Shown: positions 4,245 through 20,916, counted from the stretch's first letter. The stretch: 32,000 nt of DNA from Micrococcaceae bacterium (GCA_035999715.1 DASYGM010000065.1:16298-48297); one strand, 5' to 3'. Made by a program: numbers and translations. Notes: generated by a model not told the origin, from the sequence alone.

Positions 4245-4335
4245 AAAATCCGCAGGCGGCAAGCCCGCCTTATAGAAAAAACGCAGGCGGAACGGGCCGC
4301 CTTCTAGAAAAAACGCAGACGGAACTGCCGCCATC
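4208..4335. repeat. tandem array of four ~31-32 bp hairpin-containing units
   Basis: Unit 1 (4242-4272) is tagaaaatccgcaggcggcaagcccgcctta. Unit 2 (4273-4304) is tagaaaaaacgcaggcggaacgggccgccttc. Unit 3 (4305-4335) is tagaaaaaacgcagacggaactgccgccatc. A degenerate unit 0 (about 4208-4241, gaaaaagccacaggcagcaaagcctgccatt) forms the last codons of the membrane-protein CDS. Units 1 and 2 carry the stem AGGCGG/CCGCCT. On the minus strand each unit reads as a stem-loop followed by GCGTTTTTT. Confidence 0.75.
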
Positions 4336-8404: not shown

Positions 8405-9595
8405 ATGAACTCAGCGGGCACTCTCACCCTGTCCAAGCTTGGCCGGGCCCGAAAATCATTCAGCCGCCGGGAATGGGGATCGCTGGCAGCCATGGCCGGG
8501 TTCGTGGTGCTCCTTCATGCTCTTGGTTGGGGTGTCTTGGTGGCGGTGGCCGCACCCGCCAGCCTTCCGGGTGTCCCCGCGGGGGTCTTTGGCGTCGGGC
8601 TGGGGGTGACCGCCTACACCTTGGGTCTGCGCCATGCCTTCGATGCGGACCATATCGCCGCCATCGACAATACGACGCGCAAACTGATGAACGACGGCAA
8701 GCGGCCGCTCTCGGTCGGATTCTGGTTTTCGCTGGGCCACTCCAGCATTGTCTTTGGGCTGTGCGCCCTGCTCGCTGCCGGCGTTCGCACGCTGGCCGAC
8801 CAGATGGATGCACCGTCCTCGACCCTGCATTCGGTCCTGGCCCTGGTGGGGACGGGCATCTCAGGGGTCTTCCTGTACATCATTGGAATCGTCAATCTGG
8901 TGCTGCTGGTCGGCATTGTCAAAATCTTCCGGGGCATGCGCCACGGCGCCTATGACGAGGCGTCCCTGGAGCAGCAGCTGAATCACCGGGGATTGGTGAA
9001 CCGGGTCTTTGGCCGCGCCACCCGGGTAGTCACACGGCCTTGGCAGATGTACGCCGTCGGGCTGCTCTTCGGCCTGGGATTCGACACCGCGACAGAGGTG
9101 AGCCTGCTGATCGTGGCCGGCGGGGCGGCGGCGTTCGCACTGCCCTGGTACGCCATCCTGACCCTGCCGGTCCTGTTCGCAGCGGGCATGAGCCTGCTGG
9201 ACTCGGTGGACGGCTGCTTCATGAACTTCGCCTACGGCTGGGCGTTCTCCCGGCCGGTGCGGAAGATCTACTACAACCTGGTCATCACCGCGCTCTCGGT
9301 CTCCGTCGCATTGGTGGTCGGCTCGATCGAACTCATCTCCCTCCTGGTGGAGGGGACGGGCATGACGGCCGGACCGCTCGCGGCAATCGGACGGCTGGAC
9401 CTGAACCTGGTGGGCTATGCGATCGTCGCGGTCTTCCTCCTGGCCTGGCTGGCGGCCGTGGCCATCTGGAGATTCGCCCGCATAGAGGACAAATGGGATG
9501 CCGCGTTCCAGCCGCAGCCGGATCCGGAGGATGCCGCCACAGCCCCGGCACTCCGCCCGCCAGCGCACGCCGCGGCCCCGCCGTCGGACTATTGA
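8405..9595 (+). CDS. hoxN: HoxN/HupN/NixA-family nickel/cobalt transporter (NiCoT)
   Basis: The NiCoT signature RHAFDADHIAAIDNTTR is present in TM2, plus LGFDTATEV and GMSLLDSVDG, with about 8 TM segments. It sits directly upstream of hypA and hypB. Confidence 0.9.
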   Translation: MNSAGTLTLSKLGRARKSFSRREWGSLAAMAGFVVLLHALGWGVLVAVAAPASLPGVPAGVFGVGLGVTAYTLGLRHAFDADHIAAIDNTTRKLMNDGKRPLSVGFWFSLGHSSIVFGLCALLAAGVRTLADQMDAPSSTLHSVLALVGTGISGVFLYIIGIVNLVLLVGIVKIFRGMRHGAYDEASLEQQLNHRGLVNRVFGRATRVVTRPWQMYAVGLLFGLGFDTATEVSLLIVAGGAAAFALPWYAILTLPVLFAAGMSLLDSVDGCFMNFAYGWAFSRPVRKIYYNLVITALSVSVALVVGSIELISLLVEGTGMTAGPLAAIGRLDLNLVGYAIVAVFLLAWLAAVAIWRFARIEDKWDAAFQPQPDPEDAATAPALRPPAHAAAPPSDY

Positions 9596-9642
9596 AGTTT
9601 CCAAAGGGGGCGCCTACATTGATTTCAGAGGTGGCAATGCCC

Positions 9643-9972
9643 ATGCATGAACTCTCTATCACCCAAAGCCTGGTCGATGCGGTCCTGGACCGCACCGGCA
9701 CACAGCCGGTTACCGGCGTGCATGTGCGCGTCGGACGGCTCTCCGGCGTCCTGCCTGATGCGATGAGGTTCTGCTTCGAACTGATTTCCGACGGCACGCC
9801 GCTGGCCGGGGCACAGCTGCTGATCGACGAGCCCGACGGCGTAACCCGATGCCGTTCCTGCGGCACGGATACCGCCATGCTGGACATGATCCCGTTGTGT
9901 CCGTGCGGCAGCGCCGACGTCGAAATCATCAGTGGACGCGAGCTTATGCTCACGTCCGTGGAGGTGGCCTGA
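9643..9972 (+). CDS. hypA: hydrogenase maturation nickel metallochaperone HypA
   Basis: MHELSITQSLVDAV is the conserved MHE Ni-binding N-terminus, and the zinc site is CRSCG...CPCG. SD GAGGTGG is at 9627-9633. The track ORF 9040..9972 is an over-extended version of the same frame; ATG 9637 is a possible alternative start. Confidence 0.9.
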   Translation: MHELSITQSLVDAVLDRTGTQPVTGVHVRVGRLSGVLPDAMRFCFELISDGTPLAGAQLLIDEPDGVTRCRSCGTDTAMLDMIPLCPCGSADVEIISGRELMLTSVEVA

Positions 9973-9975
9973 GCT

Positions 9976-10854
9976 ATGTGTTCAACGTGTGGCTGCAGCG
10001 ACGATGCCGGCGTCCGGGTTTCGACCCTCGACGGAGGCCCGGTGGAGGCGCCACATACGCACGACGACGGCGGAACTCCCCACACGCACGACCACACCCA
10101 TGGCGACGGCGGAACTCCCCACACGCACACGCACGACGATGCCCACGCCGTCGGGCCGCGGACCATAGACCTCGAGCAGAACCTGCTGGCCAAAAACGAA
10201 CTCCTGGCCGCCCGCAACCGGGGCTGGTTGGAGGGCCGCGGCATCCGGGCCTTCAACCTCATGAGTTCGCCCGGTTCCGGAAAAACCACGCTGCTGGTGC
10301 GCACCATCGAGGAGCTGGGGAACTCACTGGAGATCGGGGTGATCGAAGGGGACCAGGAAACCTCCGTCGATGCCAACCGCATCCGCGCCACCGGGAGCCC
10401 TGTCATCCAGATCAACACCGGTGCCGGATGCCATCTGGACGCCGGCATGCTGCAGCGCGGCCTTACCGCCCTGAACCCCGGAACCGGATCCACCGTGTTC
10501 ATCGAGAACGTGGGAAACCTGGTGTGCCCGGCCATGTTCGACCTGGGGGAAAGCGCAAAAGTAGTAATCATTTCCGTTACGGAAGGGGATGACAAACCTC
10601 TGAAGTACCCGCATATGTTCACGGCAGCTGACCTGGTCATCATCAATAAGGCCGATCTGCTCCCCTATGTTGATTTCGACGTCGACGCGTGCCTGCGCCA
10701 GGCCCGCCAGCTCCATCCGGGCGTCGAAATGCTGACCGTTTCGGCCAGCACCGGCGAGGGACTTGATGGCTGGTTCAGCTGGATCAGAAATCGGTCCGCA
10801 ACTCCTGCGGCATCCCTTGATACCGCAGGGCAACAGCATCGGATGCCCGTCTGA
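9976..10854 (+). CDS. hypB: hydrogenase nickel incorporation GTPase HypB
   Basis: The N-terminal high-affinity Ni site is MCSTCGCS, followed by the His-rich stretch HTHDDGGTPHTHDHTHGDGGTPHTHTHDDAH. The GTPase motifs are SSPGSGKTTL, ENVGNLVCP and NKADL. Confidence 0.95.
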   Translation: MCSTCGCSDDAGVRVSTLDGGPVEAPHTHDDGGTPHTHDHTHGDGGTPHTHTHDDAHAVGPRTIDLEQNLLAKNELLAARNRGWLEGRGIRAFNLMSSPGSGKTTLLVRTIEELGNSLEIGVIEGDQETSVDANRIRATGSPVIQINTGAGCHLDAGMLQRGLTALNPGTGSTVFIENVGNLVCPAMFDLGESAKVVIISVTEGDDKPLKYPHMFTAADLVIINKADLLPYVDFDVDACLRQARQLHPGVEMLTVSASTGEGLDGWFSWIRNRSATPAASLDTAGQQHRMPV

Positions 10855-10907
10855 TGCCCTGAGATGTACAAACTGGGGCCCGCTCCCTGGGGCTCTCAAA
10901 GGAGGCA

Positions 10908-11969
10908 ATGGTGCCTACTGCTGCAGCAGCGCAGGCTGAAGAGACCCTCATCCATGTCCTGTGGATCAATGCCGGGCTCAGTTGTGACGGGGACTCGGTA
11001 TCCCTGACGGCAGCAACCCAGCCCAGCGTCGAAGAAATCGCCCTCGGCGCGCTTCCCGGGTTGCCCAGAATCGCCATGCACTGGCCGCTGATCGACTTTG
11101 AGTGTGGCCCGCAGGAGGGCGCCGACGATTTCCTGGAGTGGTTCCGCAAGGCCGACCGCGGTGAGCTGGAACCGTTTGTCCTGGTGGTGGAGGGGTCCAT
11201 CCCGAACGAGAAACTACATGCCGACGGCGGCTACTGGTCTGGCTTCGGCAATGACCTTGAGACCGGCCAGCCCATCACCACCAGCGAGTGGCTGGACAGG
11301 CTGGCACCCAAGGCCACGGCGATCATCGCGGCCGGAACCTGTGCCACGTACGGTGGGATCCACGCGATGGCCGGTAACCCCACCGGTGCCATGGGGGTAC
11401 CGGACTACCTGGGCTATGACTGGAAGTCCAAGGCGGGGATCCCCATTGTCTGCGTGCCCGGGTGCCCCATCCAGCCAGACAATCTTTCCGAGACCATGAC
11501 CTACCTGCTCTACCAGGCCACCGGCCAGGCACCGATGATCCCGCTCGATGAGTCGCTGCGGCCCACCTGGCTGTTCGGCGCGACGGTCCATGAGGGCTGC
11601 GACCGCGCCGGCTACTACGAACAGGGCGATTTCGCCACGGAGTACGGCTCCCCCAAATGCATCGTGAAACTGGGCTGCTGGGGGCCGGTGGTCAAGTGCA
11701 ACGTCCCCAAGCGCGGCTGGATGAACGGGCTGGGCGGCTGCCCCAACGTGGGCGGTATCTGCATCGGCTGCACCATGCCGGGCTTCCCGGACAAGTTCAT
11801 GCCGTTCATGGACGAGCCTCCCGGCGGAAGGCTGAGCACCAACGCCGTCCGGCCCTACGGGACCACCATGCGCACGCTGCGCCACATCACAACGCACACG
11901 CTGGACCAGGAACCAAGTTGGCGCAAACCCGGCCGACAACTGCTCACCGGCGCGACCCGCACCTGGTAG
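10908..11969 (+). CDS. hhyS: [NiFe]-hydrogenase small subunit, group 1h/5 (actinobacterial high-affinity type)
   Basis: Fe-S ligand motifs are LSCDGDSVS (Asp in place of the second Cys of the usual CxxC), GTCATYGGIH, VPGCPIQPDN, HEGCDR, KCIVKLGCWGPVVKCN and GGCPNVGGICIGCTMPGFPDKF. There is no twin-arginine signal. SD AAAGGAGG is at 10898-10905, so GTG 10911 is an alternative start. Confidence 0.9.
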   Translation: MVPTAAAAQAEETLIHVLWINAGLSCDGDSVSLTAATQPSVEEIALGALPGLPRIAMHWPLIDFECGPQEGADDFLEWFRKADRGELEPFVLVVEGSIPNEKLHADGGYWSGFGNDLETGQPITTSEWLDRLAPKATAIIAAGTCATYGGIHAMAGNPTGAMGVPDYLGYDWKSKAGIPIVCVPGCPIQPDNLSETMTYLLYQATGQAPMIPLDESLRPTWLFGATVHEGCDRAGYYEQGDFATEYGSPKCIVKLGCWGPVVKCNVPKRGWMNGLGGCPNVGGICIGCTMPGFPDKFMPFMDEPPGGRLSTNAVRPYGTTMRTLRHITTHTLDQEPSWRKPGRQLLTGATRTW

Positions 11970-11996
11970 CGACGCCAACTTTCGAGAGGTGATGTC

Positions 11997-13790
11997 ATGA
12001 CTTCGACCATTCCGATGCCCGCCACGGGCGGCACTTCCGACGACGGCCTGGTGGAGATGGCGTGGGACCCCATCACCCGCATCGTCGGCAGCCTGGGGAT
12101 CTACACCAAGATCGACTTCAGCAACAAGCAGGTGGTGGAGTGCCACAGCACGTCATCGATCTTCCGCGGCTACTCCATCTTCATGCGGGGTAAGGATCCG
12201 CGGGACGCGCACTTCATCACCAGCCGGATCTGCGGAATCTGCGGCGACAACCACGCCACCTGCTCCTGCTATGCGCAAAACATGGCGTACGGGGTGAAGC
12301 CCCCTGCACTTGGTGAATGGATCGTGAACCTGGGCGAGGCCGCCGAGTACATGTTCGACCACAACATCTTCCAGGAGAACCTGGTGGGCGTGGACTACTG
12401 CGAGAAAATGGTCTCCGAAACCAACCCGTCGGTGCTGGCCAGCGCGGAGAACACCCGTGCCCCGCACGAGGCCGAGCACGGCTACCGCACCATCGCGGAC
12501 ATCATGCGCTCGCTGAACCCGTTCACCGGCGAGTTCTACCGCGAGGCCCTGCAGGTCAGCCGGCTCACCCGGGAGATGTTCTGCCTGATGGAGGGCCGCC
12601 ACGTGCACCCCTCCACGCTGTACCCCGGCGGGGTCGGCACCGTGGCCACCGTGCAACTGATGACGGACTACATCACCCGGCTGATGCGCTACGTGGAATT
12701 CATGAAGAAAGTCGTGCCCATGCACGATGACCTCTTCAACTTCTTCTACGAGGCACTGCCCGGCTACGAGCAGGTGGGGCTGCGCCGGACCCTGCTGGGC
12801 TGCTGGGGTTCCTTCCAGGACCCGGACCACTGCAACTTCGAGTACAAGGACATGACGGAGTGGGGCCGGAAGATGTTCGTCACCCCCGGCGTCGTGGTGG
12901 ACGGGAAGCTGGTGACCACCGACCTGGTCCAGATCAACCTGGGCATCCGGATCATGCTGGGCTCCTCCTACTATGAGGACTGGAATGACCAGGAAATGTT
13001 CGTCACCCACGACCCGCTGGGCAACCCGGTGGACAGGCGCCATCCCTGGAACCAGCACACCAATCCGCAGCCGCAGAAGCGCGACCTGCAGGACAAGTAC
13101 AGCTGGGTCATGTCGCCGCGCTGGTCCGACGGCCAGGACAACCTGGCGCTGGACACCGGCGGCGGCCCCCTGGCACGGCTCTGGTCCACGGCGCTCGCCG
13201 GGTTGGTGGACGTGGGCTACATCCAGTCCACCGGGCACAGCGTACAGATCAACCTGCCCAAGACCGCCTTGAAGGGACCTGTCACCCTGGAGTGGAAGAT
13301 TCCGCAGTGGAGCAACACGTTGGAGCGCAACCGGGCCCGCACCTATTTCCAGGCCTACGCGGCCGCCGCCGCCCTGCACTTTGCCGAAAAGGCGCTGGCG
13401 GAGATCCGCGCCGGACACACCAAGACCTGGGAGACCTTCGACGTCCCGGATGAGGCGGTGAGCTGCGGCTTCACGGAGGCCGTCCGCGGCGTGCTGTCGC
13501 ACCACATGGTGATCCGCGACGGGAAGATCGCCAACTACCACCCCTATCCGCCGACGCCGTGGAACGCGAGTCCCAGGGATGCCTCCGGAACGCCGGGACC
13601 CTACGAGGACGCGGTGCAGGGACAGCCGATCTTCGAGGAGAACGACCGCGAGCACTTCAAGGGCATCGACATCATGCGGACGGTGCGCAGCTTCGACCCC
13701 TGCCTGCCGTGCGGGGTCCATATGTACCTGGGCGACGGCAAGACCTTGGAGAAGCTGCACTCCCCGACGCAGTCACTGACCGGAGAGTAG
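11997..13790 (+). CDS. hhyL: [NiFe]-hydrogenase large subunit, group 1h/5
   Basis: The N-terminal Ni-Fe ligand motif is TSRICGICGDNH and the C-terminal motif is SFDPCLPCGVH. A 22-aa extension (MYLGDGKTLEKLHSPTQSLTGE, 13722-13787) follows, of the kind removed by the maturation protease. The protein is 597 aa; SD GAGAGG is at 11984-11989. Confidence 0.95.
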   Translation: MTSTIPMPATGGTSDDGLVEMAWDPITRIVGSLGIYTKIDFSNKQVVECHSTSSIFRGYSIFMRGKDPRDAHFITSRICGICGDNHATCSCYAQNMAYGVKPPALGEWIVNLGEAAEYMFDHNIFQENLVGVDYCEKMVSETNPSVLASAENTRAPHEAEHGYRTIADIMRSLNPFTGEFYREALQVSRLTREMFCLMEGRHVHPSTLYPGGVGTVATVQLMTDYITRLMRYVEFMKKVVPMHDDLFNFFYEALPGYEQVGLRRTLLGCWGSFQDPDHCNFEYKDMTEWGRKMFVTPGVVVDGKLVTTDLVQINLGIRIMLGSSYYEDWNDQEMFVTHDPLGNPVDRRHPWNQHTNPQPQKRDLQDKYSWVMSPRWSDGQDNLALDTGGGPLARLWSTALAGLVDVGYIQSTGHSVQINLPKTALKGPVTLEWKIPQWSNTLERNRARTYFQAYAAAAALHFAEKALAEIRAGHTKTWETFDVPDEAVSCGFTEAVRGVLSHHMVIRDGKIANYHPYPPTPWNASPRDASGTPGPYEDAVQGQPIFEENDREHFKGIDIMRTVRSFDPCLPCGVHMYLGDGKTLEKLHSPTQSLTGE

Positions 13791-13796
13791 CCCGCC

Positions 13797-14807
13797 GTGG
13801 ACGGGGACACGGTGGTGGCTGCCATGGACGGGAACGGAGCCTTCCCGCCCACGGACGGCAGCGCTCCGGAGCGCCCCGTCGACGGCGATCCCCGGGGCGA
13901 GGCCCGGCTCAGGGCCGCGGGCGAGCGGATCAGCACCCTGCTGGACGCCCTGGGCGCCGGCGGCGCGGTGGCCAGGGAGCGTGCCGAGGACCTGGTGCGC
14001 CAGGTGACCGACCTGTACGGCGCGGGGCTGGAACGCATCCTGACCGTCCTGACTGCCGGCGGCCCCGGACGGGACGACGTCCTAAACGAACTGCTGGCGG
14101 ACGATCTGGTCTCCTGCCTGCTGCTGGTGCACGGCCTGCATCCGCGGGACCTGGCCACCCGCGTGGCGTCCGCGCTGGACAGTGTCCGGCCGTACCTGGG
14201 CTCGCATGGCGGCGACGTCGAGTTGCTGGGGATCAGCGACGACGGCGCGGTGCGCCTGCGTCTGCTGGGCAGCTGCCAGGGCTGCCCGTCGTCGTCGGTC
14301 ACGCTCAAGTACGCCGTCGAGGATGCCATCATGGCCGCGGCCCCGGAGGCCACCTCGATTGTGGTTCAGGAGGCGGAAAAGTCCGCCGGCTCGCCGGCAC
14401 TGATCCCCGTGTCATCGCTGCGCCTGCGCCTGGATCAGGTTCCCGAGCAGCCCGAGGGGTCCTGGGAGGCGCTCCCCGGGATTGCCGAGCTGCAGCCCGG
14501 CGAGGTGGCAGGATTCCTGGCCGCCGGCGTGGAGCTGCTGGTTTGCCGGAGCGGGCAGGACCTGTACGCCTTCCGCGACTACTGCCCGCGCTGCACCGGG
14601 TCCATGGCCGGAGCTGCCCTGCAACGGGCGCTCGCCGCGCCCACCGGCGGCGGACTGCTGCGCTGTCCGCTCTGCCGGAGCCACTTCGATGTCCGGCGGG
14701 CGGGGGCATGCGTGGAGGACAAGGGACTGCATTTGGATCCGCTCCCGCTGCTGGTCCGTTCCGGCGTGATGTCCGTAGCCGTGCCGGTCGGAACGGAGCG
14801 CGCCTGA
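13797..14807 (+). CDS. NifU-domain iron-sulfur protein with a C-terminal Rieske-like fold bearing four Cys (HhyE-like)
   Basis: The NifU C-terminal-type segment is LDSVRPYLGSHGGDVELLGISDDGAVRLRLLGSCQGCPSS. The C-terminus YAFRDYCPRCTG...LLRCPLCRSHFD aligns to the Rieske pattern CPH.G...CP.HG, but with Cys in place of both His. The GTG start is 6 nt after the hhyL stop. Confidence 0.8.
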   Translation: MDGDTVVAAMDGNGAFPPTDGSAPERPVDGDPRGEARLRAAGERISTLLDALGAGGAVARERAEDLVRQVTDLYGAGLERILTVLTAGGPGRDDVLNELLADDLVSCLLLVHGLHPRDLATRVASALDSVRPYLGSHGGDVELLGISDDGAVRLRLLGSCQGCPSSSVTLKYAVEDAIMAAAPEATSIVVQEAEKSAGSPALIPVSSLRLRLDQVPEQPEGSWEALPGIAELQPGEVAGFLAAGVELLVCRSGQDLYAFRDYCPRCTGSMAGAALQRALAAPTGGGLLRCPLCRSHFDVRRAGACVEDKGLHLDPLPLLVRSGVMSVAVPVGTERA

Positions 14808-14956
14808 TGGCCCCGGATGGCGCAACGCGTACCCGGGCGGCTGCCGCCCCGTTGGGAGCAGCGCGTGCCCGGGCGGCGGCCCTGTTGGGAGCAGCGCGTG
14901 CCCAGGCGGCGGCCACCCCTGTCGGCTCCACGCGTGCCTGGGCGGCGGCACCATGA
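14807..14956 (+). CDS. possible 49-aa Ala/Arg-rich sORF encoded entirely by a tandem repeat (may be untranslated spacer)
   Basis: ATG 14807 overlaps the TGA of the NifU-domain gene (ATGA), and its TGA 14954-14956 overlaps ATG 14953 of the next gene (ATGA). The peptide is MAPDGATRTRAAAAPLGAARARAAALLGAARAQAAATPVGSTRAWAAAP. I found no SD and no homology. Confidence 0.3.
   Translation: MAPDGATRTRAAAAPLGAARARAAALLGAARAQAAATPVGSTRAWAAAP
14816..14954. repeat. four tandem 33-37 bp GC-rich units filling the intergenic gap inside the hydrogenase operon (MIRU-like)
   Basis: Unit A is 14816-14850. Unit B (14851-14883) is gttgggagcagcgcgtgcccgggcggcggccct. Unit C (14884-14920) is gttgggagcagcgcgtgcccaggcggcggccacccct. 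Unit D (14921-14954) is gtcggctccacgcgtgcctgggcggcggcaccat. B and C differ by one base over their first 31 nt. Confidence 0.75.
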
Positions 14957-15693
14957 CGACGGCGTTGCCTGGGGACGCCCGTGCCCTCTCTGTGCTGCGC
15001 AGGATCAGCGCCAACCGGCCCGCGCCGTCGGACGGCGAGCGCTGCGAGATGTGTGCGGAACCGATTCGTGACGCGCACCAGCATGTGGTGGATGTGGAGA
15101 GCCGGGCCCTGTTGTGCACCTGCCGCCCGTGCTACCTGCTCTTCACCGACCCGCAGGCGCATCTGCGCTACCGGTCCGTGCCGGAGCGCTACCATTCCTT
15201 CCCCGGATTCCGGCTTGGTCAGGGACAGTGGGACGAACTGGAAATCCCGGTGGGCTTGGCCTTCTTCTTCCGCAATTCCAAGCAGGGAAAGATGCTGGCC
15301 TTCTACCCGGGCCCGGCCGGTGCCACCGAATCGGAGTTGCCGCTGGGGGCATGGGATGCGGTCCAAGCCGCAAACCCCTCGCTTGGAGTTGCCGCGCCGG
15401 ACACCGAGGCGCTGCTGATCCGCGGGCCGGGACCGGAGCGGCTGCAGGCCGACTGCCATCTGGTCCCCATCGACGCCTGCTATGAGCTTGTGGGCCAGCT
15501 GCGCCGGGTCTGGCGGGGATTCGACGGCGGCCAGCAGGCGCGCGAACAGCTTGCGGCTTTCTTCGACAAGGTGGCTGGCCGCAGCAGGCCCGTACCAGAC
15601 CTTCCGGAGCCTCCCGCCCCTGCCGCGTCAGCGGACGTGGCGCAACCCGCAGCCCACGCCGCGGCAGCGGAGGGAGCCGTGACAAATGACTGA
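14953..15693 (+). CDS. conserved hydrogenase-cluster protein with an N-terminal five-Cys motif (DUF5947-like by recollection)
   Basis: 246 aa with strong GC3 bias. The motif is ERCEMCAEPIRDAHQHVVDVESRALLCTCRPCYLLF (C31, C34, C55, C57, C60). It is translationally coupled on both sides. Confidence 0.8.
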   Translation: MTTALPGDARALSVLRRISANRPAPSDGERCEMCAEPIRDAHQHVVDVESRALLCTCRPCYLLFTDPQAHLRYRSVPERYHSFPGFRLGQGQWDELEIPVGLAFFFRNSKQGKMLAFYPGPAGATESELPLGAWDAVQAANPSLGVAAPDTEALLIRGPGPERLQADCHLVPIDACYELVGQLRRVWRGFDGGQQAREQLAAFFDKVAGRSRPVPDLPEPPAPAASADVAQPAAHAAAAEGAVTND

Positions 15694-16327
15694 CCTTCAG
15701 TTCGCCGTCGTTGACCTTCAGCCGGAGCGTTACGCCGCGGCCCCCCAACTGACCGCACGGCTGCGCATCAGCGAATCCACCGGCGCCGCCATCCACGCCA
15801 TCGCCCTGCGCTGCCAGGTCCGCATCCAACCGCAGCGGCGCGGCTATGACGCCGAGGAAGCGGCCGGGCTGCTGGACCTCTTTGGCCCGCGCGAACGCTG
15901 GCCCTCCACGCTGAAACCATTCCTGTGGATGCAGTGCAGCACCATGGTCCAGGGGTTCACGGACCAGACCGAGGTGGACCTGCCGCTGCCGTGCACCTTT
16001 GACTTCGACGTGGTCGGCGCGAAATACCTGCACGCCCTCCGGGACAAGGCCGTCCCGCTTGAGCTGCTCTTTTCCGGCACGATCTTCACCAAGGGAACCA
16101 CCGGATTCGGGGTGGAGCAGGTGCCCTGGGACCGGGAAGCGAGCTACCAGATGCCGGTGTCCGTGTGGCGAGGGCTGATGGACGCGTTCTTCCCGCACGC
16201 CGGCTGGATCCGTCTTGACCTCGACGTCATCAACGCGCTGGCGCACTACAAAGCCGCGCTGGGCCTGACCTCCTGGGAGGAAACCATGGAGAGCCTACTG
16301 GCGAAGGCCGGTGAACCGGTCCCGTGA
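15686..16327 (+). CDS. conserved hydrogenase-cluster protein of unknown function (DUF6084-like by recollection)
   Basis: 213 aa. ATG 15686 overlaps the upstream gene by 8 nt, and its stop overlaps GTG 16324 of the next gene (GTGA). No motif was recognised. Confidence 0.8.
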   Translation: MTDLQFAVVDLQPERYAAAPQLTARLRISESTGAAIHAIALRCQVRIQPQRRGYDAEEAAGLLDLFGPRERWPSTLKPFLWMQCSTMVQGFTDQTEVDLPLPCTFDFDVVGAKYLHALRDKAVPLELLFSGTIFTKGTTGFGVEQVPWDREASYQMPVSVWRGLMDAFFPHAGWIRLDLDVINALAHYKAALGLTSWEETMESLLAKAGEPVP

Positions 16328-17757
16328 ACACTAGTCTCAGCCTGGCCCGCGCCATTGCGGATGTGGTCCTCTACGAGGGCTATCTGCTCTACCCCTACCG
16401 GGCCTCCTCCCAGAAGAACCAGGCCCGCTGGCAGTTCGGCATCCTGGGCCCTCAGGGCGCCGCCGGGAACGGAACGGGCGAGGATTCTGCTATGTCCACC
16501 GACTGCCTGCTGCTGGCCGGCCCCCTAGCCCGGCTGGAGGTCCATCTGCGCTTCCTGCAGCTGCAGTCGCGCAGCGTCGAGGAGGCCGACGGCGGCGCCT
16601 TCCGGCCGGTGCCCGGGCTGACGGTCGGATCCGCCAGCTGGCTGAGCTGGGACGAGGCGACTGAGCACGAGCTGACGCTGGGGCCGTTCAGCCTGGCCGA
16701 GCTGGCCGAGGGCCTGAGCCTGCCCGTGGAGGTTGCCGGCGGGGAGGAGGCGGAACTTCTGACGGATGAGGCCGGCACGGTGGCCGGAAGGCTGGTCCGA
16801 CGGCGGCGGCCGCTGCACGGTGTCGTCCGGCTGACGGCGGCGGAAGTTCCGCCAGCCGGGACGGCGGAAGTGTCGCCAGCCGGGACGGACACCAGTGCCC
16901 CGTTCGACTGTGGCAGCAGGCCGTTGCTCCGGCTGCGGGTGGCAGCCGAAAACCTTGCGGACGGCCAGGGCGCGGGCAAGCAGGGTGCCATCGCCACGTC
17001 GTTTATCGGCACCCATCTGCTGCTTGGCGCCCAGGACGCGGATTTCGTCTCGCTGCTTGAGCCGCCCGCCGAAGCTCAGGCCGTCGCTGCCGCGTGCACC
17101 CATCACCGGTGCTGGCCCGTACTGGCCGGTCCAGAAGGCCAGCGGGACATTCTGCTGCTGTCCCCGATCATTCTCTACGACCACCCGGCCGTTGCTCCGG
17201 AAAGCTCCGTTGCCCTCTACGACTCCACCGAAATCGACGAGATCCTGACCCTGCGTGTACTGACACTGACCGAGGAGGAAAAGGCCGAGGCCCGTGCCAC
17301 CGATCCGCGTGCGGCTGCGGTCATTGACCGCTGCGAGGCGATGTCCCCGCAGGAGCTGCAGCAGCTGCATGGGGCTCTGCGCAGCCCGCATGCCATGGAG
17401 GGGGCAGCAGAAGCCGGGGATCTGCCCTGGTGGGATCCGGCATCGGACGCCAGCGTCCAGCCGGAGGCCGACGTCGTCATGATCGCCGGAGTCCCGGTCT
17501 CGCGGGGCAGCCGGGTGGTTGTCCGCCCGCAGCGCCGGGCCGACGCACAGGACCTGTTTTCCGCCGGCCAAATCGCCCGCGTCAACGGCGTGCACTTCGA
17601 CGTCGACGGAAGCACGCACGTCGCCGTCGTTCTGGAAGCGGATCCGGCCGCGGAACTGCAGGAATGGTACGGCCGCTATCTGTATTTTGCACCGGAGGAG
17701 CTGGAACCGATGGGTCCGCTGACGGACCCGGAAGATCGAAGGGAAAATGGATCATGA
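16324..17757 (+). CDS. 477-aa hypothetical protein of the hydrogenase operon
   Basis: This long ORF has consistent GC3 bias. The N-terminus reads ADVVLYEGYLLYPYRASSQKNQARWQFGILGP. It contains an in-frame 24-bp tandem duplication at 16840-16887 and is coupled to its neighbours at both ends. I recognised no domain. Confidence 0.75.
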   Translation: MNTSLSLARAIADVVLYEGYLLYPYRASSQKNQARWQFGILGPQGAAGNGTGEDSAMSTDCLLLAGPLARLEVHLRFLQLQSRSVEEADGGAFRPVPGLTVGSASWLSWDEATEHELTLGPFSLAELAEGLSLPVEVAGGEEAELLTDEAGTVAGRLVRRRRPLHGVVRLTAAEVPPAGTAEVSPAGTDTSAPFDCGSRPLLRLRVAAENLADGQGAGKQGAIATSFIGTHLLLGAQDADFVSLLEPPAEAQAVAAACTHHRCWPVLAGPEGQRDILLLSPIILYDHPAVAPESSVALYDSTEIDEILTLRVLTLTEEEKAEARATDPRAAAVIDRCEAMSPQELQQLHGALRSPHAMEGAAEAGDLPWWDPASDASVQPEADVVMIAGVPVSRGSRVVVRPQRRADAQDLFSAGQIARVNGVHFDVDGSTHVAVVLEADPAAELQEWYGRYLYFAPEELEPMGPLTDPEDRRENGS

Positions 17758-17873
17758 GAGTCCTAGGCATGCTCACCACACTCGTGTTGCTGGCCGGGGC
17801 CGCTACGGTTGCGGTCGTCGGGGTGCGCTCCATCCCTGACATCCAGCGCTACCTTAAGATCAGGCAAATGTGA
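17754..17873 (+). CDS. 39-aa single-pass transmembrane micro-protein
   Basis: The peptide is MRVLGMLTTLVLLAGAATVAVVGVRSIPDIQRYLKIRQM: one hydrophobic helix followed by a basic amphipathic tail. ATG 17754 overlaps the upstream TGA (ATGA), and its stop 17871-17873 overlaps GTG 17870 of the protease ORF. Confidence 0.55.
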   Translation: MRVLGMLTTLVLLAGAATVAVVGVRSIPDIQRYLKIRQM

Positions 17874-18502
17874 GGCAATCGGTCCAAGCCGGTCAGCCCA
17901 GGGCCGTGGCTCCGGCCCCGGGTCCGGCCCTGGTATCCGGGCCGGACCCGGGGCATGTGCTGGTGGCCGGCGTCGGTAACATCTTCCTGCGCGACGACGG
18001 CTTCGGCCCCGAGGTGGCCCGCAGGCTCGCCTCGGAACCCCTTGCGTTCCAACCAGGGGTGCAGGTGGTGGATTACGGCATCCGCGGGATGCATCTGGCC
18101 TACGATCTGTTGGACCCGGTGGATGCGCTGGTGCTGGTGGATGCGTTGCCTCCGGGTTCCGGGATGCCTGGAGACCTCCGTGTGATGCAGATAACGCCGG
18201 AGGATCTAACGTCCGGGTCACACATTGGCCAGCCACACGTTGGGCAGCCACACGTTGGGCTGGGGCTGGACCTGCACGGCATGGATCCGTTGACGGTCTT
18301 GGCCCGGCTTCGCTCGCTGGGCGGAGAGCTGCCGATGACCTATCTGGTGGGGTGCGTGGTGGCGGACACCGAAGAAGGCATCGGTCTCTCGTCCGCAGTG
18401 GAGGCCGCCGTGCCGCGCGCCATGGCCCAGGTCATCTCGCTGGCTGCGCAGCATGTTTCCGCGGTCGCCGCTGAACTGACCCCAACCGATCCGAGGAGGT
18501 AG
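17870..18502 (+). CDS. hupD: hydrogenase maturation (large-subunit C-terminal) endopeptidase, HupD/HyaD/HybD family
   Basis: VLVAGVGNIFLRDDGFGPEVARRL and VVDYGIRGMHLAYDLL...LVLVDA are typical of this family. The start is uncertain: either GTG 17870 (coupled) or GTG 17957 (VLVAGVGN...). It contains a QPHVG-QPHVG in-frame repeat. Confidence 0.85.
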   Translation: MRQSVQAGQPRAVAPAPGPALVSGPDPGHVLVAGVGNIFLRDDGFGPEVARRLASEPLAFQPGVQVVDYGIRGMHLAYDLLDPVDALVLVDALPPGSGMPGDLRVMQITPEDLTSGSHIGQPHVGQPHVGLGLDLHGMDPLTVLARLRSLGGELPMTYLVGCVVADTEEGIGLSSAVEAAVPRAMAQVISLAAQHVSAVAAELTPTDPRR

Positions 18503-18507
18503 CCGCC

Positions 18508-18807
18508 ATGTGTCTGGGGATTCCGGGAAAAGTAATAGAGATGGTTGAGGGGTACGGAGGCCAGCTGGCGCTGGTTGATGTGGCCGGGGTGCGGCGGAAG
18601 ATTAACATCGGCCTGTTGGACGAGGGGCCGCTTGAGCCGGGGTCGTGGGTGCTCATACATATGGGGTTTGCGCTGGAACGCGTGGATGCCGCCGGGGCTG
18701 ACAAAGCCATGGACGGGCTGGAACTGATGGGCCGGCCCCGGAATGCCGACGTGGACGCCGGTAAACAGGCAGCCGTTGGGGAAGTTCGGGGCGTGACCGA
18801 AGTTTAG
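18508..18807 (+). CDS. hypC: HypC/HybG/HupF-family hydrogenase assembly chaperone
   Basis: The N-terminus MCLGIPGKVIEM contains the essential Cys2, and PGSWVLIHMGFALERVD is also present. SD GAGGAGG (18493-18499) lies 8 nt upstream. Confidence 0.9.
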   Translation: MCLGIPGKVIEMVEGYGGQLALVDVAGVRRKINIGLLDEGPLEPGSWVLIHMGFALERVDAAGADKAMDGLELMGRPRNADVDAGKQAAVGEVRGVTEV

Positions 18808-19583
18808 GTGTAGTGCTCCAGGGCCACGGCGGTGCCCCTGTGTTCGACGCTGCTGTTCGCGATTTTCAGGTGCCGGACGGTGAAGAGCTGTAGCTGGTGC
18901 AGCTGCGGCGCGGTGAGCCTGTCGCACACCCAGTCCCAATGCAGGGATACGGCGTCGCCCACGGCCAGGTCCGCCACGAAGCCCACGCCCGCCACCGCGT
19001 ACCTGGCCGTCTCAACCTGTGGCTGGCCGAGTGAGAGGACCCGGCCGTCCCACTCCAGCGGGCGGGAGCTCACCAGGGCCTCGTCGCCGGTGATGGCCAG
19101 CACTTCGCCCCACCGGATGCGGCATTTATCCAGCACGTTTAGTGCGGTGGCATAGCGCCGGTCATCGCGCAGCAGCCCCAGCCATGGATAGACCTCGAAG
19201 ACATGGAAACTGTGGTGCGGAACGCCGCCCGCCAGCACCCCTTCGATCAGGTGCGGGAACTGCTGCCCGGTGCGGGCGCGGAACCGGTCTTCCATTGAGT
19301 TGCCAACGTTTCGGAGGCCGACGCGGTCCAGCAGTGAGTTGCCCACCCAGTAGGCCTCCACCACCCGGTGATCCAGTGGATCACGGATTCCTGTGGCCCC
19401 GGCAATGAGTTCCAGATAGGGCCAGGCACCGGCGAACCCTTTGGCCAGTTCACGCAGTCCGGGATCTGTGACGCCGGATTGGCCGTAGTGCAGCAGTGCA
19501 TCACTGTCTTCGGGCCCGCAACTGCCTCGGGAGTTGGGCGGGTAGGCATAACGGACAAACAACTGGGCGCCATCGATAACCAT
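18804..19583 (-). CDS. DUF6390-like protein (by recollection) whose C-terminal third resembles HypC
   Basis: 259 aa from ATG 19583 (MVIDGAQLFVRYAYPPN...), with a GAGG-containing SD upstream. The track ORF extends to 19889, but that extension is Pro/Arg-rich and lacks codon bias. The gene is convergent with hypC and shares 4 nt (18804-18807). Confidence 0.75.
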   Translation of the reverse strand: MVIDGAQLFVRYAYPPNSRGSCGPEDSDALLHYGQSGVTDPGLRELAKGFAGAWPYLELIAGATGIRDPLDHRVVEAYWVGNSLLDRVGLRNVGNSMEDRFRARTGQQFPHLIEGVLAGGVPHHSFHVFEVYPWLGLLRDDRRYATALNVLDKCRIRWGEVLAITGDEALVSSRPLEWDGRVLSLGQPQVETARYAVAGVGFVADLAVGDAVSLHWDWVCDRLTAPQLHQLQLFTVRHLKIANSSVEHRGTAVALEHYT

Positions 19584-19680
19584 GTTCTGGCCTCGTTCCC
19601 TAGGGTGATACTTGACGGTAGCACCGCCCTGTATGGCCGACAAGGAAACCTGAAGCTGCCGTCGTCGGGCGCGCGTTCCG

Positions 19681-19709
19681 TTGACACTCCCAGCACCCGG
19701 GTAGATGCT
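19681..19709 (+). promoter_or_regulatory. candidate promoter TTGACA-N17-GATGCT for the ABC importer operon
   Basis: TTGACA is at 19681-19686, followed by a 17-nt spacer and GATGCT at 19704-19709, about 55 nt upstream of GTG 19765. This is a pattern match only. Confidence 0.3.
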
Positions 19710-19764
19710 GGAGGCCTGCACGCTCTTCTTGAACACCAATGTTCTCTGTCGAGGAGGTGAGCCA

Positions 19765-20916
19765 GTGTCTTCCGGCCAGATCCCCCGGCGCTCGCTCCTG
19801 AAAGGCATCGTCCTAGGTGGCGGGGCGGCGTTGCTGTCCGGCTGCGGCCCGAGCGGCGACGCGGGCGGCGCCCCAACGGTGGCAGGCACTGACTACGCCG
19901 CCGGCCCCCTCAGCGTCACTGACCAGCGTGGCAAGACCCTGACCTTCAGCAAACCGGTCACCAGGGTGGTGACCATTCCGATGCCGGCGGCTTCGCTACT
20001 GGTGGCCGTCGACCAGGGCGCAGGCCATCTGTCCGCCATGCATAACGCGTCCTGGGTGGCCATGCGGGACGGCATTATGGGACAGTTCTACCCGGCTGCT
20101 TTGAACATCCCCCATGACATTGCCACCCAAGACTTCATCCCGAACGTCGAAAGCGTCCGCGCGCTGGATCCGGACGTCGTCGTGCAGTGGAGCGACTCGC
20201 AACTCATCGCCCCACTGGAAAACGCGGGCCTGAAGGTGCTGGGGCTGAGCAACACTGGAACGCAGCAGGACGTGGATGCCTGGATCACCATGTTCGCGGC
20301 CATGCTGGGCAAGCCGGAGCGTGCCAGCCAGTTCAAGGCCCGCAGCGACGCGGAACTGAAGGAAGTCCAGTCCGCTGCTGCGGGGCACGCCGGAGCCGGC
20401 CCACGGATCATCTACTTCAACCGCTTCACCGGCGGTCTCAAGGTGGCGGGAACGAGCAGCTACAACGACTTCTACATCAAACTGGTGGGCGGAACCAATC
20501 CGGCCTCCGGCGCGCAGGGGGCTAAGGGCTCGGGGATGGTCGGGGTCGACGTCGAACAGGTGCTGGCCTGGGATCCGGAGGTGGTCCTGTTGGGGAACTT
20601 CGATGCGGCGATGCCCAACGACATCTACTCCAACCCGGTCTGGCAGACGGTCTCCGCGGTCCGCTCCCGCCGGGTCTACAAGGTTCCGCTGGGCGGCTAC
20701 CGCTGGGATCCGCCCGGACAGGAATCGCCCTTGATGTGGCACTGGCTGGCAGACATCAGCTTTCCCCAGCAGGGTAAATCGCAGCTCCGCAACAAGATCA
20801 CCGGCTACTACGACTTTCTCTATGCCCGTAAACCCAGCACCGAGCAAATGGACAAGGTCCTGTGGACCGATGTGAACGGCCAGTCGACCGACTACGGGCA
20901 ATTCGATGCTTCATGA
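19765..20916 (+). CDS. ABC transporter substrate-binding lipoprotein, FecB/BtuF (iron-chelate/cobalamin, TroA-like) type, Tat-signal
   Basis: GTG 19765 lies 7 nt after SD GAGGAGG (19751-19757). The twin-arginine plus lipobox signal is SSGQIPRRSLLKGIVLGGGAALLSGC. The body resembles periplasmic binding protein family 8 (VVTIPMPAASLL..., DPDVVVQW, DPEVVLLGN). Confidence 0.85.
   Translation: MSSGQIPRRSLLKGIVLGGGAALLSGCGPSGDAGGAPTVAGTDYAAGPLSVTDQRGKTLTFSKPVTRVVTIPMPAASLLVAVDQGAGHLSAMHNASWVAMRDGIMGQFYPAALNIPHDIATQDFIPNVESVRALDPDVVVQWSDSQLIAPLENAGLKVLGLSNTGTQQDVDAWITMFAAMLGKPERASQFKARSDAELKEVQSAAAGHAGAGPRIIYFNRFTGGLKVAGTSSYNDFYIKLVGGTNPASGAQGAKGSGMVGVDVEQVLAWDPEVVLLGNFDAAMPNDIYSNPVWQTVSAVRSRRVYKVPLGGYRWDPPGQESPLMWHWLADISFPQQGKSQLRNKITGYYDFLYARKPSTEQMDKVLWTDVNGQSTDYGQFDAS

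What the first reader, a model, noticed from the sequence alone, without database searches (positions are those of the whole stretch)
13797..17873. Six translationally coupled genes of unknown function between the group 1h hydrogenase structural genes and the maturation protease
Seen: from the hhyL stop (13790) to the protease ORF (17870) every junction is tight or overlapping. The junctions are a 6-nt gap at 13791-13796, ATGA at 14807, ATGA at 14953-14956, an 8-nt overlap at 15686-15693, GTGA at 16324-16327, ATGA at 17754-17757 and ATGTGA at 17868-17873. The products are a NifU-domain protein with an all-Cys Rieske-like C-terminus (336 aa), an Ala/Arg repeat sORF (49 aa), a five-Cys protein (246 aa), a 213-aa protein, a 477-aa protein and a 39-aa TM peptide. 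Apart from the Cys clusters I can assign no catalytic or cofactor motif.

Established: group 1h/5 [NiFe]-hydrogenases (Hhy of Mycobacterium smegmatis, HhySL of Streptomyces, the actinobacterial-type enzyme of Cupriavidus necator) oxidise H2 at atmospheric concentrations. They lack a Tat signal and a cytochrome b partner, and their link to the respiratory chain is unresolved.

Inference: this block makes up about 39 percent of the 10.4 kb locus. It is the best candidate for the missing electron-transfer, membrane-docking or O2-protection module. The tight coupling suggests stoichiometric partners of HhySL rather than trace-level maturases.
Basis: partly seen in the sequence, partly recalled or inferred. 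Interest (0 to 1): 0.8.

Follow-up and report, generated by a model that had tools for sequence, protein, structure and literature searches.

The report
Conserved accessory genes of air-hydrogen hydrogenase
Five of the six reported genes are real and always sit next to the hydrogenase that lets soil bacteria live on atmospheric hydrogen, but this block was already known, looks more like enzyme-assembly machinery than a missing electron wire, and its most interesting member is a tiny membrane peptide.

Summary
The window comes from a Micrococcaceae (Arthrobacter-like) genome. It carries nicO-hypA-hypB-hhyS-hhyL, the block in question, then hupD-hypC.

**What is real**
- Five of the six ORFs are real, conserved genes:
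  - HhyE (NifU plus a 4-Cys Rieske-like domain)
  - DUF5947
  - DUF6084
  - a 477-aa family with no Pfam model ("g5")
  - the 39-aa single-pass membrane peptide DUF6893 ("g6")
- The 49-aa Ala/Arg "sORF" is not a supported gene. It lies on a lineage-specific 33/36-nt tandem repeat, has non-coding codon-position GC, and has no homologue in 80 related loci.

**Linkage**
- In 160 fetched loci and three plasmids, g5 always sits with group 1h hydrogenase genes, in the same order.
- This is the known PHG066-069 / MSMEG_2718-type block. It is not a new system.

**Function**
- Tight coupling does not indicate stoichiometric subunits, because the same chain includes the protease and HypC.
- g5 is recurrently fused to the maturation protease, and DUF6084 is fused to g5.
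- Purified group 1h enzymes contain only the two structural subunits.
- I favour an assembly or maturation role.
- DUF6893 is also present, unannotated, in Cupriavidus and Methylocystis. It is a plausible but untested membrane anchor.

The parts
8405..9595 (+). nicO-type nickel transporter. This is the start of the 10.4 kb locus.
   Evidence: Pfam NicO, E 6.9e-91
9643..9972 (+). hypA (start approximate)
   Evidence: Pfam HypA, E 4.5e-29, on the translation of 9598-9972
9976..10854 (+). hypB
   Evidence: Pfam cobW/HypB/UreG, E 1.7e-25
10908..11969 (+). hhyS, group 1h small subunit. No twin-arginine signal is visible in the N-terminus.
   Evidence: Pfam Oxidored_q6 plus NiFe_hyd_SSU_C; sequence read
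11997..13790 (+). hhyL, group 1h large subunit
   Evidence: Best solved relative is 5AA5 HofG at 1072 bits; the next best is 169 bits
13797..14807 (+). g1 = HhyE-type protein: N-terminal region, a NifU domain with CxxC, and a Rieske-like domain with two CxxC motifs
   Evidence: Pfam NifU E 2e-22 and Rieske at 22.2 bits against a cut-off of 20.3. Matches the HhyE description in PMC6883350. Present in 74/74 genome loci.
14807..14956 (+). g2 = 49-codon open frame on a tandem repeat. It is at most a translational-coupling relay, not a conserved gene.
   Evidence: The closest relative, L001, has only a 10-codon mini-ORF with the same TGATG...ATGA ends.
14822..14947 (.). 33/36-nt tandem repeat, 3.6 copies
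   Evidence: TRF score 131-134. No excess RNA structure, z = +1.4. No Rfam hit.
14953..15693 (+). g3 = DUF5947, with the N-terminal motif C-x2-C-x7-H-x-H-x10-C-x-C-x2-C and a confident alpha/beta C-terminal domain
   Evidence: Pfam 244 bits. C31 C34 H42 H44 C55 C57 C60 C176 are invariant and C168 nearly invariant (A2). AF2 pLDDT 74. Homologue of PHG067.
15686..16327 (+). g4 = DUF6084, with no conserved Cys/His ligand set
   Evidence: Pfam 316 bits; alignment A3; fused to g5 in P0232
16324..17757 (+). g5 = 477-aa family without a Pfam or NCBIfam model: beta-sandwich core, a conserved low-confidence linker, and an SH3-like C-terminal domain
   Evidence: Fused to the HycI protease in 7 clusters.
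17754..17873 (+). g6 = DUF6893, a 39-aa single-pass membrane peptide with a basic C-terminal motif S-I-P-D-x-x-R-Y-L-K-x-R-x-M
   Evidence: Pfam 56.5 bits. Found in all 80 genome loci and in 58/80 metagenome loci. Codon-position entropy 1.03/0.74/1.42.
17870..18502 (+). HupD/HycI-type maturation endopeptidase. The true start is possibly GTG 17957.
   Evidence: TIGR00072 E 1.3e-29; start discussed
18508..18807 (+). hypC
   Evidence: Pfam HupF_HypC, E 9e-22
18804..19889 (-). DUF6390 gene, convergent with hypC. It is a further conserved unknown of this neighbourhood.
   Evidence: Pfam E 1.7e-91; tblastn hit in 61 of 80 genome loci

Best explanation
The block is the conserved, group-1h-specific accessory segment of the hhy operon. 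It corresponds to PHG066-PHG069 of Cupriavidus necator and the MSMEG_2718-type genes of mycobacteria.

**Shown**
- Five genes (HhyE, DUF5947, DUF6084, g5, DUF6893) are inherited as a unit with hhySL, and their junctions overlap across phyla.
- The sixth ORF is a repeat expansion in a short intercistronic linker.

**Inferred mechanism**
- The soluble proteins act mainly before or during enzyme assembly. They are not permanent subunits.
- HhyE uses its Nfu-type domain to build or deliver Fe-S clusters to HhyS in air.
- DUF5947 (a Cys/His metal site), DUF6084 and g5 form a chaperone-like set. It handles the unprocessed subunits and hands HhyL to the endopeptidase, to which g5 is physically fused in some lineages.
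- DUF6893 stays in the membrane with its basic C-terminal tail in the cytoplasm. It may hold the finished enzyme, or the assembly complex, at the membrane.
For: **Linkage and order**
- Genome loci: g4 76/76, g3 76/76, g1 74/74, hhyL 70/70, hhyS 64/64. Distant metagenome loci: 55/57, 47/48, 40/41, 26/26, 17/17.
- The same order with overlapping junctions occurs on pHG1, a Methylocystis plasmid and a Mycobacterium plasmid.

**Fusions**
- g5::HycI in P0138, P0140, P0141, P0183, P0189, P0195 and P0205; DUF6084::g5 in P0232.
- These recur in independent assemblies.
- The g5::HycI fusion of P0140 was seen in its full operon context (L167).

**No sign of permanent subunits**
- DUF6084 has no conserved Cys/His ligand set, and g5 matches no Pfam or NCBIfam family, including no cofactor-binding domain.
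- The NifU domain's closest solved relatives are Nfu-type Fe-S scaffold proteins.
- The Rieske-like domain of HhyE is dispensable: 14 of 37 distant loci have NifU-only spacing, and the protein is 192 aa in C. necator.
- The purified Methylacidiphilum enzyme shows two bands only (PMC7174314).
- 5AA5 is the only solved group 1h relative, and none of the accessory proteins appears in any PDB chain.

**Analogy with Huc**
- HucE, the Huc counterpart of HhyE, is required for activity (PMC6883350).
- Yet purified Huc has only HucS, HucL and a third subunit, and the paper never mentions HucE (PMC10017518).

**g6 topology**
- One hydrophobic helix is followed by a net-positive tail.
Against: - No experiment on DUF5947, DUF6084, g5 or DUF6893 exists in the searched literature.
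- The loss of Hhy activity in the hhyE deletion fits an electron relay as well as a maturase (PMC6883350).
- Weakly bound partners could be lost during purification. The purified Methylacidiphilum enzyme did lose affinity (PMC7174314).
- Fusion to the protease shows functional linkage, not a mechanism.
- Fold searches gave no informative structural relative, so the 'chaperone' label is inference only.
- Methylacidiphilum is reported to lack hhyE and the hypothetical Hyd-1h operon proteins described in Pyrinomonas, yet it makes active enzyme (PMC6688271, PMC7174314). The set is therefore not universally required for maturation either.
Confidence: 0.55

Rival explanations
1. The products are stoichiometric partners of HhySL and form the missing electron-transfer and membrane-docking module. 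Electrons would pass from HhyS to the 4-Cys cluster of HhyE and/or the Cys/His site of DUF5947, then to menaquinone at a DUF6893-anchored complex.
For: - Strict genetic linkage.
- Cys clusters in g1 and g3.
- Hhy is strongly membrane-bound although HhyS and HhyL have no membrane segment (10.1101/769216).
- No anchor is known (PMC13332983).
- The hhyE deletion abolishes activity, and the PHG067 homologue has been proposed as an acceptor (PMC6883350).
- A YceI-type lipid-binding gene follows DUF6893 in 9 loci.
Against: - The coupling argument is void, because the protease and hypC sit in the same chain.
- g5 is fused to the protease.
- g4 has no conserved Cys/His ligand set and g5 matches no cofactor-binding family.
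- The Rieske-like domain is absent in many lineages.
- Purified enzymes contain only S and L (PMC7174314; 5AA5).
- By analogy, Huc reduces menaquinone analogues without HucE (PMC10017518).
Confidence: 0.2
2. An oxygen-protection or repair module. The proteins continuously rebuild or shield the Fe-S clusters and active site of an enzyme that must work in air for months. This would be an ongoing maintenance role rather than one-off maturation or electron transfer.
For: - The NifU-type domain.
- Co-expression in one tightly coupled operon with the structural genes.
- The purified enzyme loses activity over time (PMC7174314).
Against: - There is no direct evidence.
- This role is not distinguishable from maturation with sequence data.
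- It does not explain the protease fusion or the membrane peptide.
Confidence: 0.12
3. g2 is a genuine sixth gene that encodes a functional Ala/Arg-rich peptide.
For: - The frame is open, and its start and stop overlap g1 and g3.
- The repeat periods of 33 and 36 nt are multiples of three. The same holds for the in-frame repeats inside g5, the protease and the permease. The intergenic repeat at 4211-4332 has a period of 32 nt.
- L001 keeps a 10-codon mini-ORF with the same ends.
Against: - The GC pattern by codon position is not coding-like.
- All three forward frames are open across the repeat, so the open frame carries little weight.
- No homologue in 80 loci.
- Most relatives start g3 directly after the g1 stop.
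- Public pipelines did not call it.
Confidence: 0.07

Closest known systems
C. necator H16 pHG1 actinobacterial-type hydrogenase cluster (hofK/hofG followed by four accessory genes and a protease, i.e. PHG066-PHG070 by my reading of the old locus tags)
   Same: Same order: small subunit, large subunit, NifU protein, DUF5947, DUF6084, g5 homologue (35% identity), protease. All junctions overlap, including the same 8-nt DUF5947/DUF6084 overlap.
   Different: - The NifU protein is 192 aa and lacks the Rieske-like domain.
- The DUF6893-like peptide lies after the protease and is unannotated (L081 9999-10100).
- There is no repeat ORF.
HhyE (MSMEG_2718) of Mycobacterium smegmatis, and the MSMEG_2717 gene next to it
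   Same: g1 has the HhyE architecture of a NifU-like CxxC plus two C-terminal CxxC motifs, and it lies directly after hhyL. Deleting HhyE abolishes Hhy activity (PMC6883350).
   Different: The orthologue here is untested. In this window a 145-nt repeat separates it from the DUF5947 gene.
Hydrogenase-specific accessory genes of membrane-bound group 1 enzymes (hoxLOQRTV, hupFGHIJK, hyaEF). This comparison rests on my own knowledge of those operons.
   Same: They occupy the same position, between the structural genes and the hyp genes, alongside the endopeptidase. They are needed for aerobic assembly and are absent from the purified enzyme.
   Different: No sequence or detectable fold relationship to g3, g4 or g5. 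Group 1h has no Tat signal, so Tat-proofreading chaperones are not needed.
HucM, the third subunit of the group 2a hydrogenase Huc
   Same: It answers the same problem: how a hydrogenase without membrane segments reaches menaquinone (PMC10017518).
   Different: HucM is a stoichiometric subunit of the purified complex. Nothing here resembles it. DUF6893 is a 39-aa single-pass peptide.
Small single-pass subunits of respiratory complexes, such as CydX of cytochrome bd (own knowledge)
   Same: Similar size, a single helix, encoded inside the operon of its partner, and often missed by annotation.
   Different: No homology. A role in a complex is unproven for DUF6893.
MIRU-type intercistronic tandem repeats of mycobacteria (own knowledge)
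   Same: A tandem repeat inside an operon whose small open frame overlaps the stop and start of the flanking genes, so that coupling is preserved.
   Different: No sequence similarity was tested. This is a single locus, and no other copies occur in the window or in the fetched loci.

Membership tests
Group 1h (actinobacterial-type) [NiFe]-hydrogenase locus | The large subunit is closest to characterised group 1h enzymes | tested here: met
   HofG 5AA5 scores 1072 bits; the next best solved hydrogenase scores 169 bits
Group 1h (actinobacterial-type) [NiFe]-hydrogenase locus | The small subunit has no Tat signal, and the operon has no cytochrome b gene | tested here: met
   The HhyS N-terminus MVPTAAAAQAEETLIHVLW has no RRxF motif. 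No multi-pass membrane protein lies between 10908 and 18807.
HhyE (PMC6883350) | NifU-like domain with a CxxC motif | tested here: met
   Pfam NifU E 2e-22, residues 123-188, containing GSCQGCPSS
HhyE (PMC6883350) | C-terminal domain with two CxxC motifs, encoded directly downstream of hhyL | tested here: met
   YCPRCTG and RCPLCRS; 6-nt gap after hhyL
HhyE (PMC6883350) | Required for Hhy activity | not testable with these tools
   Genetic evidence exists only for M. smegmatis
Rieske [2Fe-2S] proteins | CxH...CxxH ligand set (two His ligands) | tested here: not met
   All four ligand positions are Cys. The Pfam Rieske score of 22.2 bits is borderline against a cut-off of 20.3, and Rieske_2 falls below its cut-off.
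DUF5947 (PF19372) | Score above the Pfam gathering threshold | tested here: met
   244.2 bits against 25
DUF6084 (PF19562) | Score above the Pfam gathering threshold | tested here: met
   315.9 bits against 25
DUF6893 (PF21833) | Score above the Pfam gathering threshold; one hydrophobic helix followed by a basic tail | tested here: met
   56.5 bits against 24.6; consensus from 76 unique genes
Structural (stoichiometric) hydrogenase subunit | Co-purifies or is co-solved with the S and L subunits | tested here: not met
   No PDB chain is related to g3, g4, g5 or g6. The purified Methylacidiphilum enzyme shows two bands (PMC7174314). This is indirect evidence only, because those preparations could have lost weak partners.
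Hydrogenase maturation factor | Required for processing or cofactor loading, and absent from the mature enzyme | not testable with these tools
   Supported only indirectly, by the g5::HycI fusions and by gene position

The most novel reading that the evidence does not exclude
DUF6893 is the long-sought membrane anchor or quinone-interface subunit of group 1h hydrogenases.
- It is a roughly 32-40-aa tail-anchored peptide.
- It is present in the hhy clusters sampled here from Actinomycetota, Alpha- and Betaproteobacteria and unassigned soil metagenome contigs, and it is usually unannotated.
- Its invariant cytoplasmic motif (P-D-x-x-R-Y-x-K-x-R-x-M at the C-terminus) would dock HhySL at the membrane.
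- In some lineages it may work with an adjacent YceI-type isoprenoid-binding protein.
- DUF5947, DUF6084 and g5 would be a previously undescribed class of protease-associated assembly chaperones.
Probability: 0.25. Interest if true: 0.75.

Novelty: new member of a known kind. Interest (0 to 1): 0.5.

Why it matters
Group 1h hydrogenases are thought to account for much of the soil uptake of atmospheric H2, which PMC7174314 puts at about half of atmospheric H2 turnover. How the enzyme reaches the membrane and the quinone pool is still open: a 2026 paper states that no anchoring subunit is known.

This work does not solve that question, but it narrows it.
- It removes a false gene from the candidate list.
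- It shows that operon coupling cannot be read as stoichiometry.
- It redirects the large unknown proteins towards assembly, through their fusions to the protease.
- It singles out one small, near-universal and commonly unannotated membrane peptide as the candidate to test first.

Tried and rejected
**Searches that gave nothing useful**
- Sequence searches of all PDB chains with g1, g3, g4, g5 and g6, and with profiles of g3, g4 and g5. Nothing was found beyond Nfu-type domains for g1.
- Foldseek against the PDB.
  - g5 gave only a low-TM match to DrmA (TM 0.2) and an SH3-like C-terminal match to PetP and nitrile hydratase beta. I do not interpret either functionally.
  - g3 gave nothing (best E 0.087).
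- Profile-profile comparison of DUF6084 with g5 showed no paralogy (probability 1%).
- Pfam scans of distant g5 and g3 homologues at E up to 1 gave no consistent family.

**Tests on the g2 repeat and the operon**
- RNA structure of the g2 repeat is no better than shuffles (z = +1.4).
- Rfam gave no hit in 10000-20000.
- The promoter and terminator scan was at shuffle expectation.

**Idea rejected**
- I considered that DUF6893 is present only where the enzyme is membrane-bound and absent from the cytoplasmic C. necator enzyme. This fails because pHG1 carries an unannotated copy.

**Literature gaps**
- Schafer et al. 2013 is not held.
- One search timed out.
- 'DUF5947', 'DUF6084' and 'DUF6893' gave one irrelevant paper.

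Full report
**What is in the window**

The region lies in a high-GC (about 66-70%) genome. The closest relatives of its proteins are Micrococcaceae such as Arthrobacter and Pseudarthrobacter. Pfam and NCBIfam scans define the following units:

| Unit | Coordinates |
|---|---|
| nicO | 8405-9595 |
| hypA | about 9643-9972 |
| hypB | 9976-10854 |
| hhyS | 10908-11969 |
| hhyL | 11997-13790 |
| block under study | 13797-17873 |
| HupD/HycI-type endopeptidase | ends at 18502 |
| hypC | 18508-18807 |
| DUF6390 gene, convergent | 18804-19889, minus strand |

- HhyL is unambiguously group 1h. Its best solved relative is HofG of C. necator (5AA5, 1072 bits); the next hydrogenase scores 169 bits.
- nicO to hypC spans 10,403 nt.

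**Checking the observation**

All six ORFs exist at the stated coordinates, and the junctions are as described, with two qualifications.

1. The g1/g2 junction is TGATG, a one-base overlap, not ATGA.
2. The g6/protease overlap (ATGTGA) assumes a GTG start at 17870 that adds about 29 unconserved residues.
   - Across 78 related loci, protease similarity begins at a median of residue 29.
   - TIGR00072 aligns from residue 31.
   - Public gene calls on near-identical contigs start at the GTG equivalent to window 17957, which leaves an 83-nt gap.

**The 49-aa 'Ala/Arg sORF' (g2) is not a supported gene**

- It coincides with a 33/36-nt tandem repeat of 3.6 copies at 14822-14947.
- Its GC by codon position is 0.80/0.86/0.70. 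Every neighbouring gene shows the coding pattern of this genome, with a low second and a high third position.
- By my reading of the sequence printed, all three forward frames are free of stop codons across the repeat, so an open frame means little.
- tblastn finds no homologue in any of 80 related loci.
- The closest relative (L001, with HhyL 95% identical) has only a 10-codon mini-ORF with the same TGATG...ATGA ends. Most other relatives start the DUF5947 gene directly after the HhyE stop.
- On three public contigs that carry the identical DUF5947 protein, no gene was called in this 145-nt gap.
- The repeat has no excess RNA structure (z = +1.4) and no Rfam match.
- One point in its favour: the repeat periods are multiples of three, so the frame from the g1 stop to the g3 start is kept. 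It may therefore be translated passively as a coupling relay. I give less than 10% to its being a functional protein.

**The five real genes**

- **g1** is an HhyE-type protein.
  - It has a NifU domain (E 2e-22) with a CxxC motif. It also has a C-terminal Rieske-like fold whose four ligand positions are all Cys.
  - This matches the published description of HhyE (PMC6883350).
- **g3** is DUF5947 (244 bits).
  - Residues C31, C34, H42, H44, C55, C57, C60 and C176 are invariant, and C168 is nearly invariant.
  - AlphaFold models the C-terminal alpha/beta domain confidently. It models the Cys/His segment poorly, as expected for a metal site.
- **g4** is DUF6084 (316 bits), with no conserved ligand set.
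- **g5** (477 aa) has no Pfam or NCBIfam model, yet the family is large.
  - There are at least 8,000 clusters at 90% identity.
  - There are 3,850 clusters at 50% identity with E up to 1e-3, of which 1,057 have E up to 1e-30.
  - Its model has a confident beta-sandwich core and a strongly conserved but low-confidence helical linker. It ends in a small SH3-like domain.
- **g6** is DUF6893 (56.5 bits): one hydrophobic helix followed by S-I-P-D-x-x-R-Y-L-K-x-R-x-M at the C-terminus.

**Linkage to the hydrogenase**

- *Genome loci.* I fetched 80 genome loci through g5 and mapped all window proteins onto them.
  - Wherever the contig reached far enough upstream, the partners were present in the same order. 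The counts were g4 76/76, g3 76/76, g1 74/74, hhyL 70/70 and hhyS 64/64.
- *Distant metagenome loci.* A second scan of metagenome contigs was seeded with distant g5 homologues, about 35-40% identical to the window protein.
  - It gave g4 55/57, g3 47/48, g1 40/41, hhyL 26/26 and hhyS 17/17.
  - The two exceptions are still hydrogenase-linked. L139 has hhyS running directly into g5. L149 has the order hypB-g5-protease-hhyS.
- *Annotated plasmids.* The same block with overlapping junctions is annotated on C. necator pHG1, a Methylocystis plasmid and a Mycobacterium plasmid.
- *Counter-example.* The literature reports that Methylacidiphilum has an active group 1h enzyme without hhyE and without the hypothetical operon proteins described in Pyrinomonas (PMC6688271; PMC7174314).

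**The small peptide**

- A search for small hydrophobic ORFs, followed by an HMM built from the hits, found g6 in all 80 genome loci.
- It also found g6 in 58 of 80 metagenome loci. Among metagenome loci with enough downstream sequence, only L107 and L159 lack a detectable copy.
- Unannotated copies lie just after the protease gene in two plasmids:
  - C. necator pHG1: MKGFLKYLVLPALVVALLANIKDIRRYIRIRSM
  - Methylocystis: MGLFEIILGLLILALIAFNFRDIVRYIKITMM
- The M. intracellulare plasmid has a copy in the unannotated gap before the protease.
- Across 76 distinct genes, variability by codon position is 1.03/0.74/1.42 bits, a coding signature.
- Where the protease is encoded elsewhere, g6 stays next to g5 (L086, L095, L096, L104, L158).
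- In L167 and eight metagenome loci, a YceI-family gene follows g6 immediately. By my own knowledge, with PMC8472277 as a pointer, that family binds polyisoprenoid lipids.

**What the block most likely does**

Several lines of evidence weigh against this.

- The same chain of short gaps and overlaps continues into the endopeptidase and hypC, which are maturases.
- Fusions point to assembly.
  - Seven of ten unusually long g5 homologues carry a C-terminal HycI protease domain, and one carries an N-terminal DUF6084.
  - These fusions recur in independent assemblies.
  - One fusion was seen in a full operon: hhyS, hhyL, a 181-aa ORF with no Pfam hit, DUF5947, DUF6084, g5::HycI, DUF6893.
- The enzyme purified from Methylacidiphilum shows only the two structural subunits (PMC7174314).
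- The single solved group 1h relative is 5AA5, and no PDB chain is related to g3, g4, g5 or g6.
- The Rieske-like domain of HhyE is missing in C. necator, Methylocystis and 14 of 37 distant loci. This argues against it being the general electron outlet.
- Purified Huc reduces menaquinone analogues with HucS, HucL and a third subunit only. The paper does not mention HucE (PMC10017518), although HucE is genetically required (PMC6883350).

I therefore favour an assembly or maturation role for HhyE, DUF5947, DUF6084 and g5 (confidence 0.55). The stoichiometric electron-transfer module remains the main rival (0.2), followed by a continuing repair role (0.12).

DUF6893 is the one product that fits 'membrane docking'. 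Hhy is found only in the membrane fraction and resists 5% cholate (10.1101/769216). A 2026 paper states that no anchor has been identified (PMC13332983). This is a lead, not a result.

**Novelty**

- The block is known. HhyE was characterised in 2019, and the PHG067 homologue was already discussed as a possible acceptor (PMC6883350).
- Three of the families have Pfam DUF entries.
- This window is a new member of that known arrangement.
- What this analysis adds:
  - removal of g2 as a gene;
  - the protease and DUF6084 fusions of g5;
  - the near-universality and poor annotation of DUF6893;
  - the optional nature of the Rieske-like domain.

Noticed in passing
window 18804-19889 (minus strand): A DUF6390 gene lies convergent with hypC. 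A tblastn homologue lies within about 8 kb downstream of g5 in 61 of 80 genome loci, on either strand, and in 5 metagenome loci.
   Followed up: partly
L081 9999-10100 (pHG1 about 66753-66854); L082 about 9732-9830; L163 8335-8454: Unannotated DUF6893-like small ORFs occur in C. necator pHG1, a Methylocystis parvus plasmid and a Mycobacterium intracellulare plasmid. In the first two they lie just after the protease gene, and in the third just before it.
   Followed up: yes
L167 10044-10565; L083, L087, L088, L093, L094, L121, L131, L132: A YceI-family gene (polyisoprenoid-binding, lipocalin-like) lies directly after DUF6893 in L167 (Acidimicrobiaceae-type) and in eight taxonomically unassigned metagenome loci. 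It is absent from the window and from the 80 genome loci. It may be a quinone-handling partner.
   Followed up: partly
window 4211-4332: An intergenic tandem repeat of 32 nt with about 3.5 copies (consensus GAAAAACCGCAGGCGGCAAAGCCCGCCATATA) lies after a DUF6297 gene. Each unit contains a short GC-rich inverted repeat. It is unexplained.
   Followed up: no
window 18219-18260, 16838-16888, 20992-21161: In-frame tandem repeats occur inside coding genes: 15 nt x 2.8 in the protease, 24 nt x 2.1 in g5, and 24/48/72 nt in the FecCD permease N-terminus. A public contig that encodes the identical DUF5947 protein (L164) is 39 nt shorter between the end of g6 and the start of hypC. I attribute this to repeat copy number in the protease gene, but I did not align the two sequences.
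   Followed up: partly
L081 3208-4263, L082 3287-4366, L163 1933-2988: RefSeq names the group 1h small subunit 'hydrogenase expression protein HypE' in three unrelated records. This is a systematic misannotation, also remarked on in PMC13332983.
   Followed up: no
L139 1802-4200: On this metagenome contig hhyS runs directly into g5, with hhyL, hhyE, DUF5947 and DUF6084 missing. It is either a deletion variant or an assembly artefact.
   Followed up: partly
window 19705-22922 and whole window: A periplasmic-binding-protein / FecCD / ABC-ATPase transporter follows the locus. hypD, hypE and hypF are not in the 32 kb window, although they flank the cluster in several relatives.
   Followed up: no
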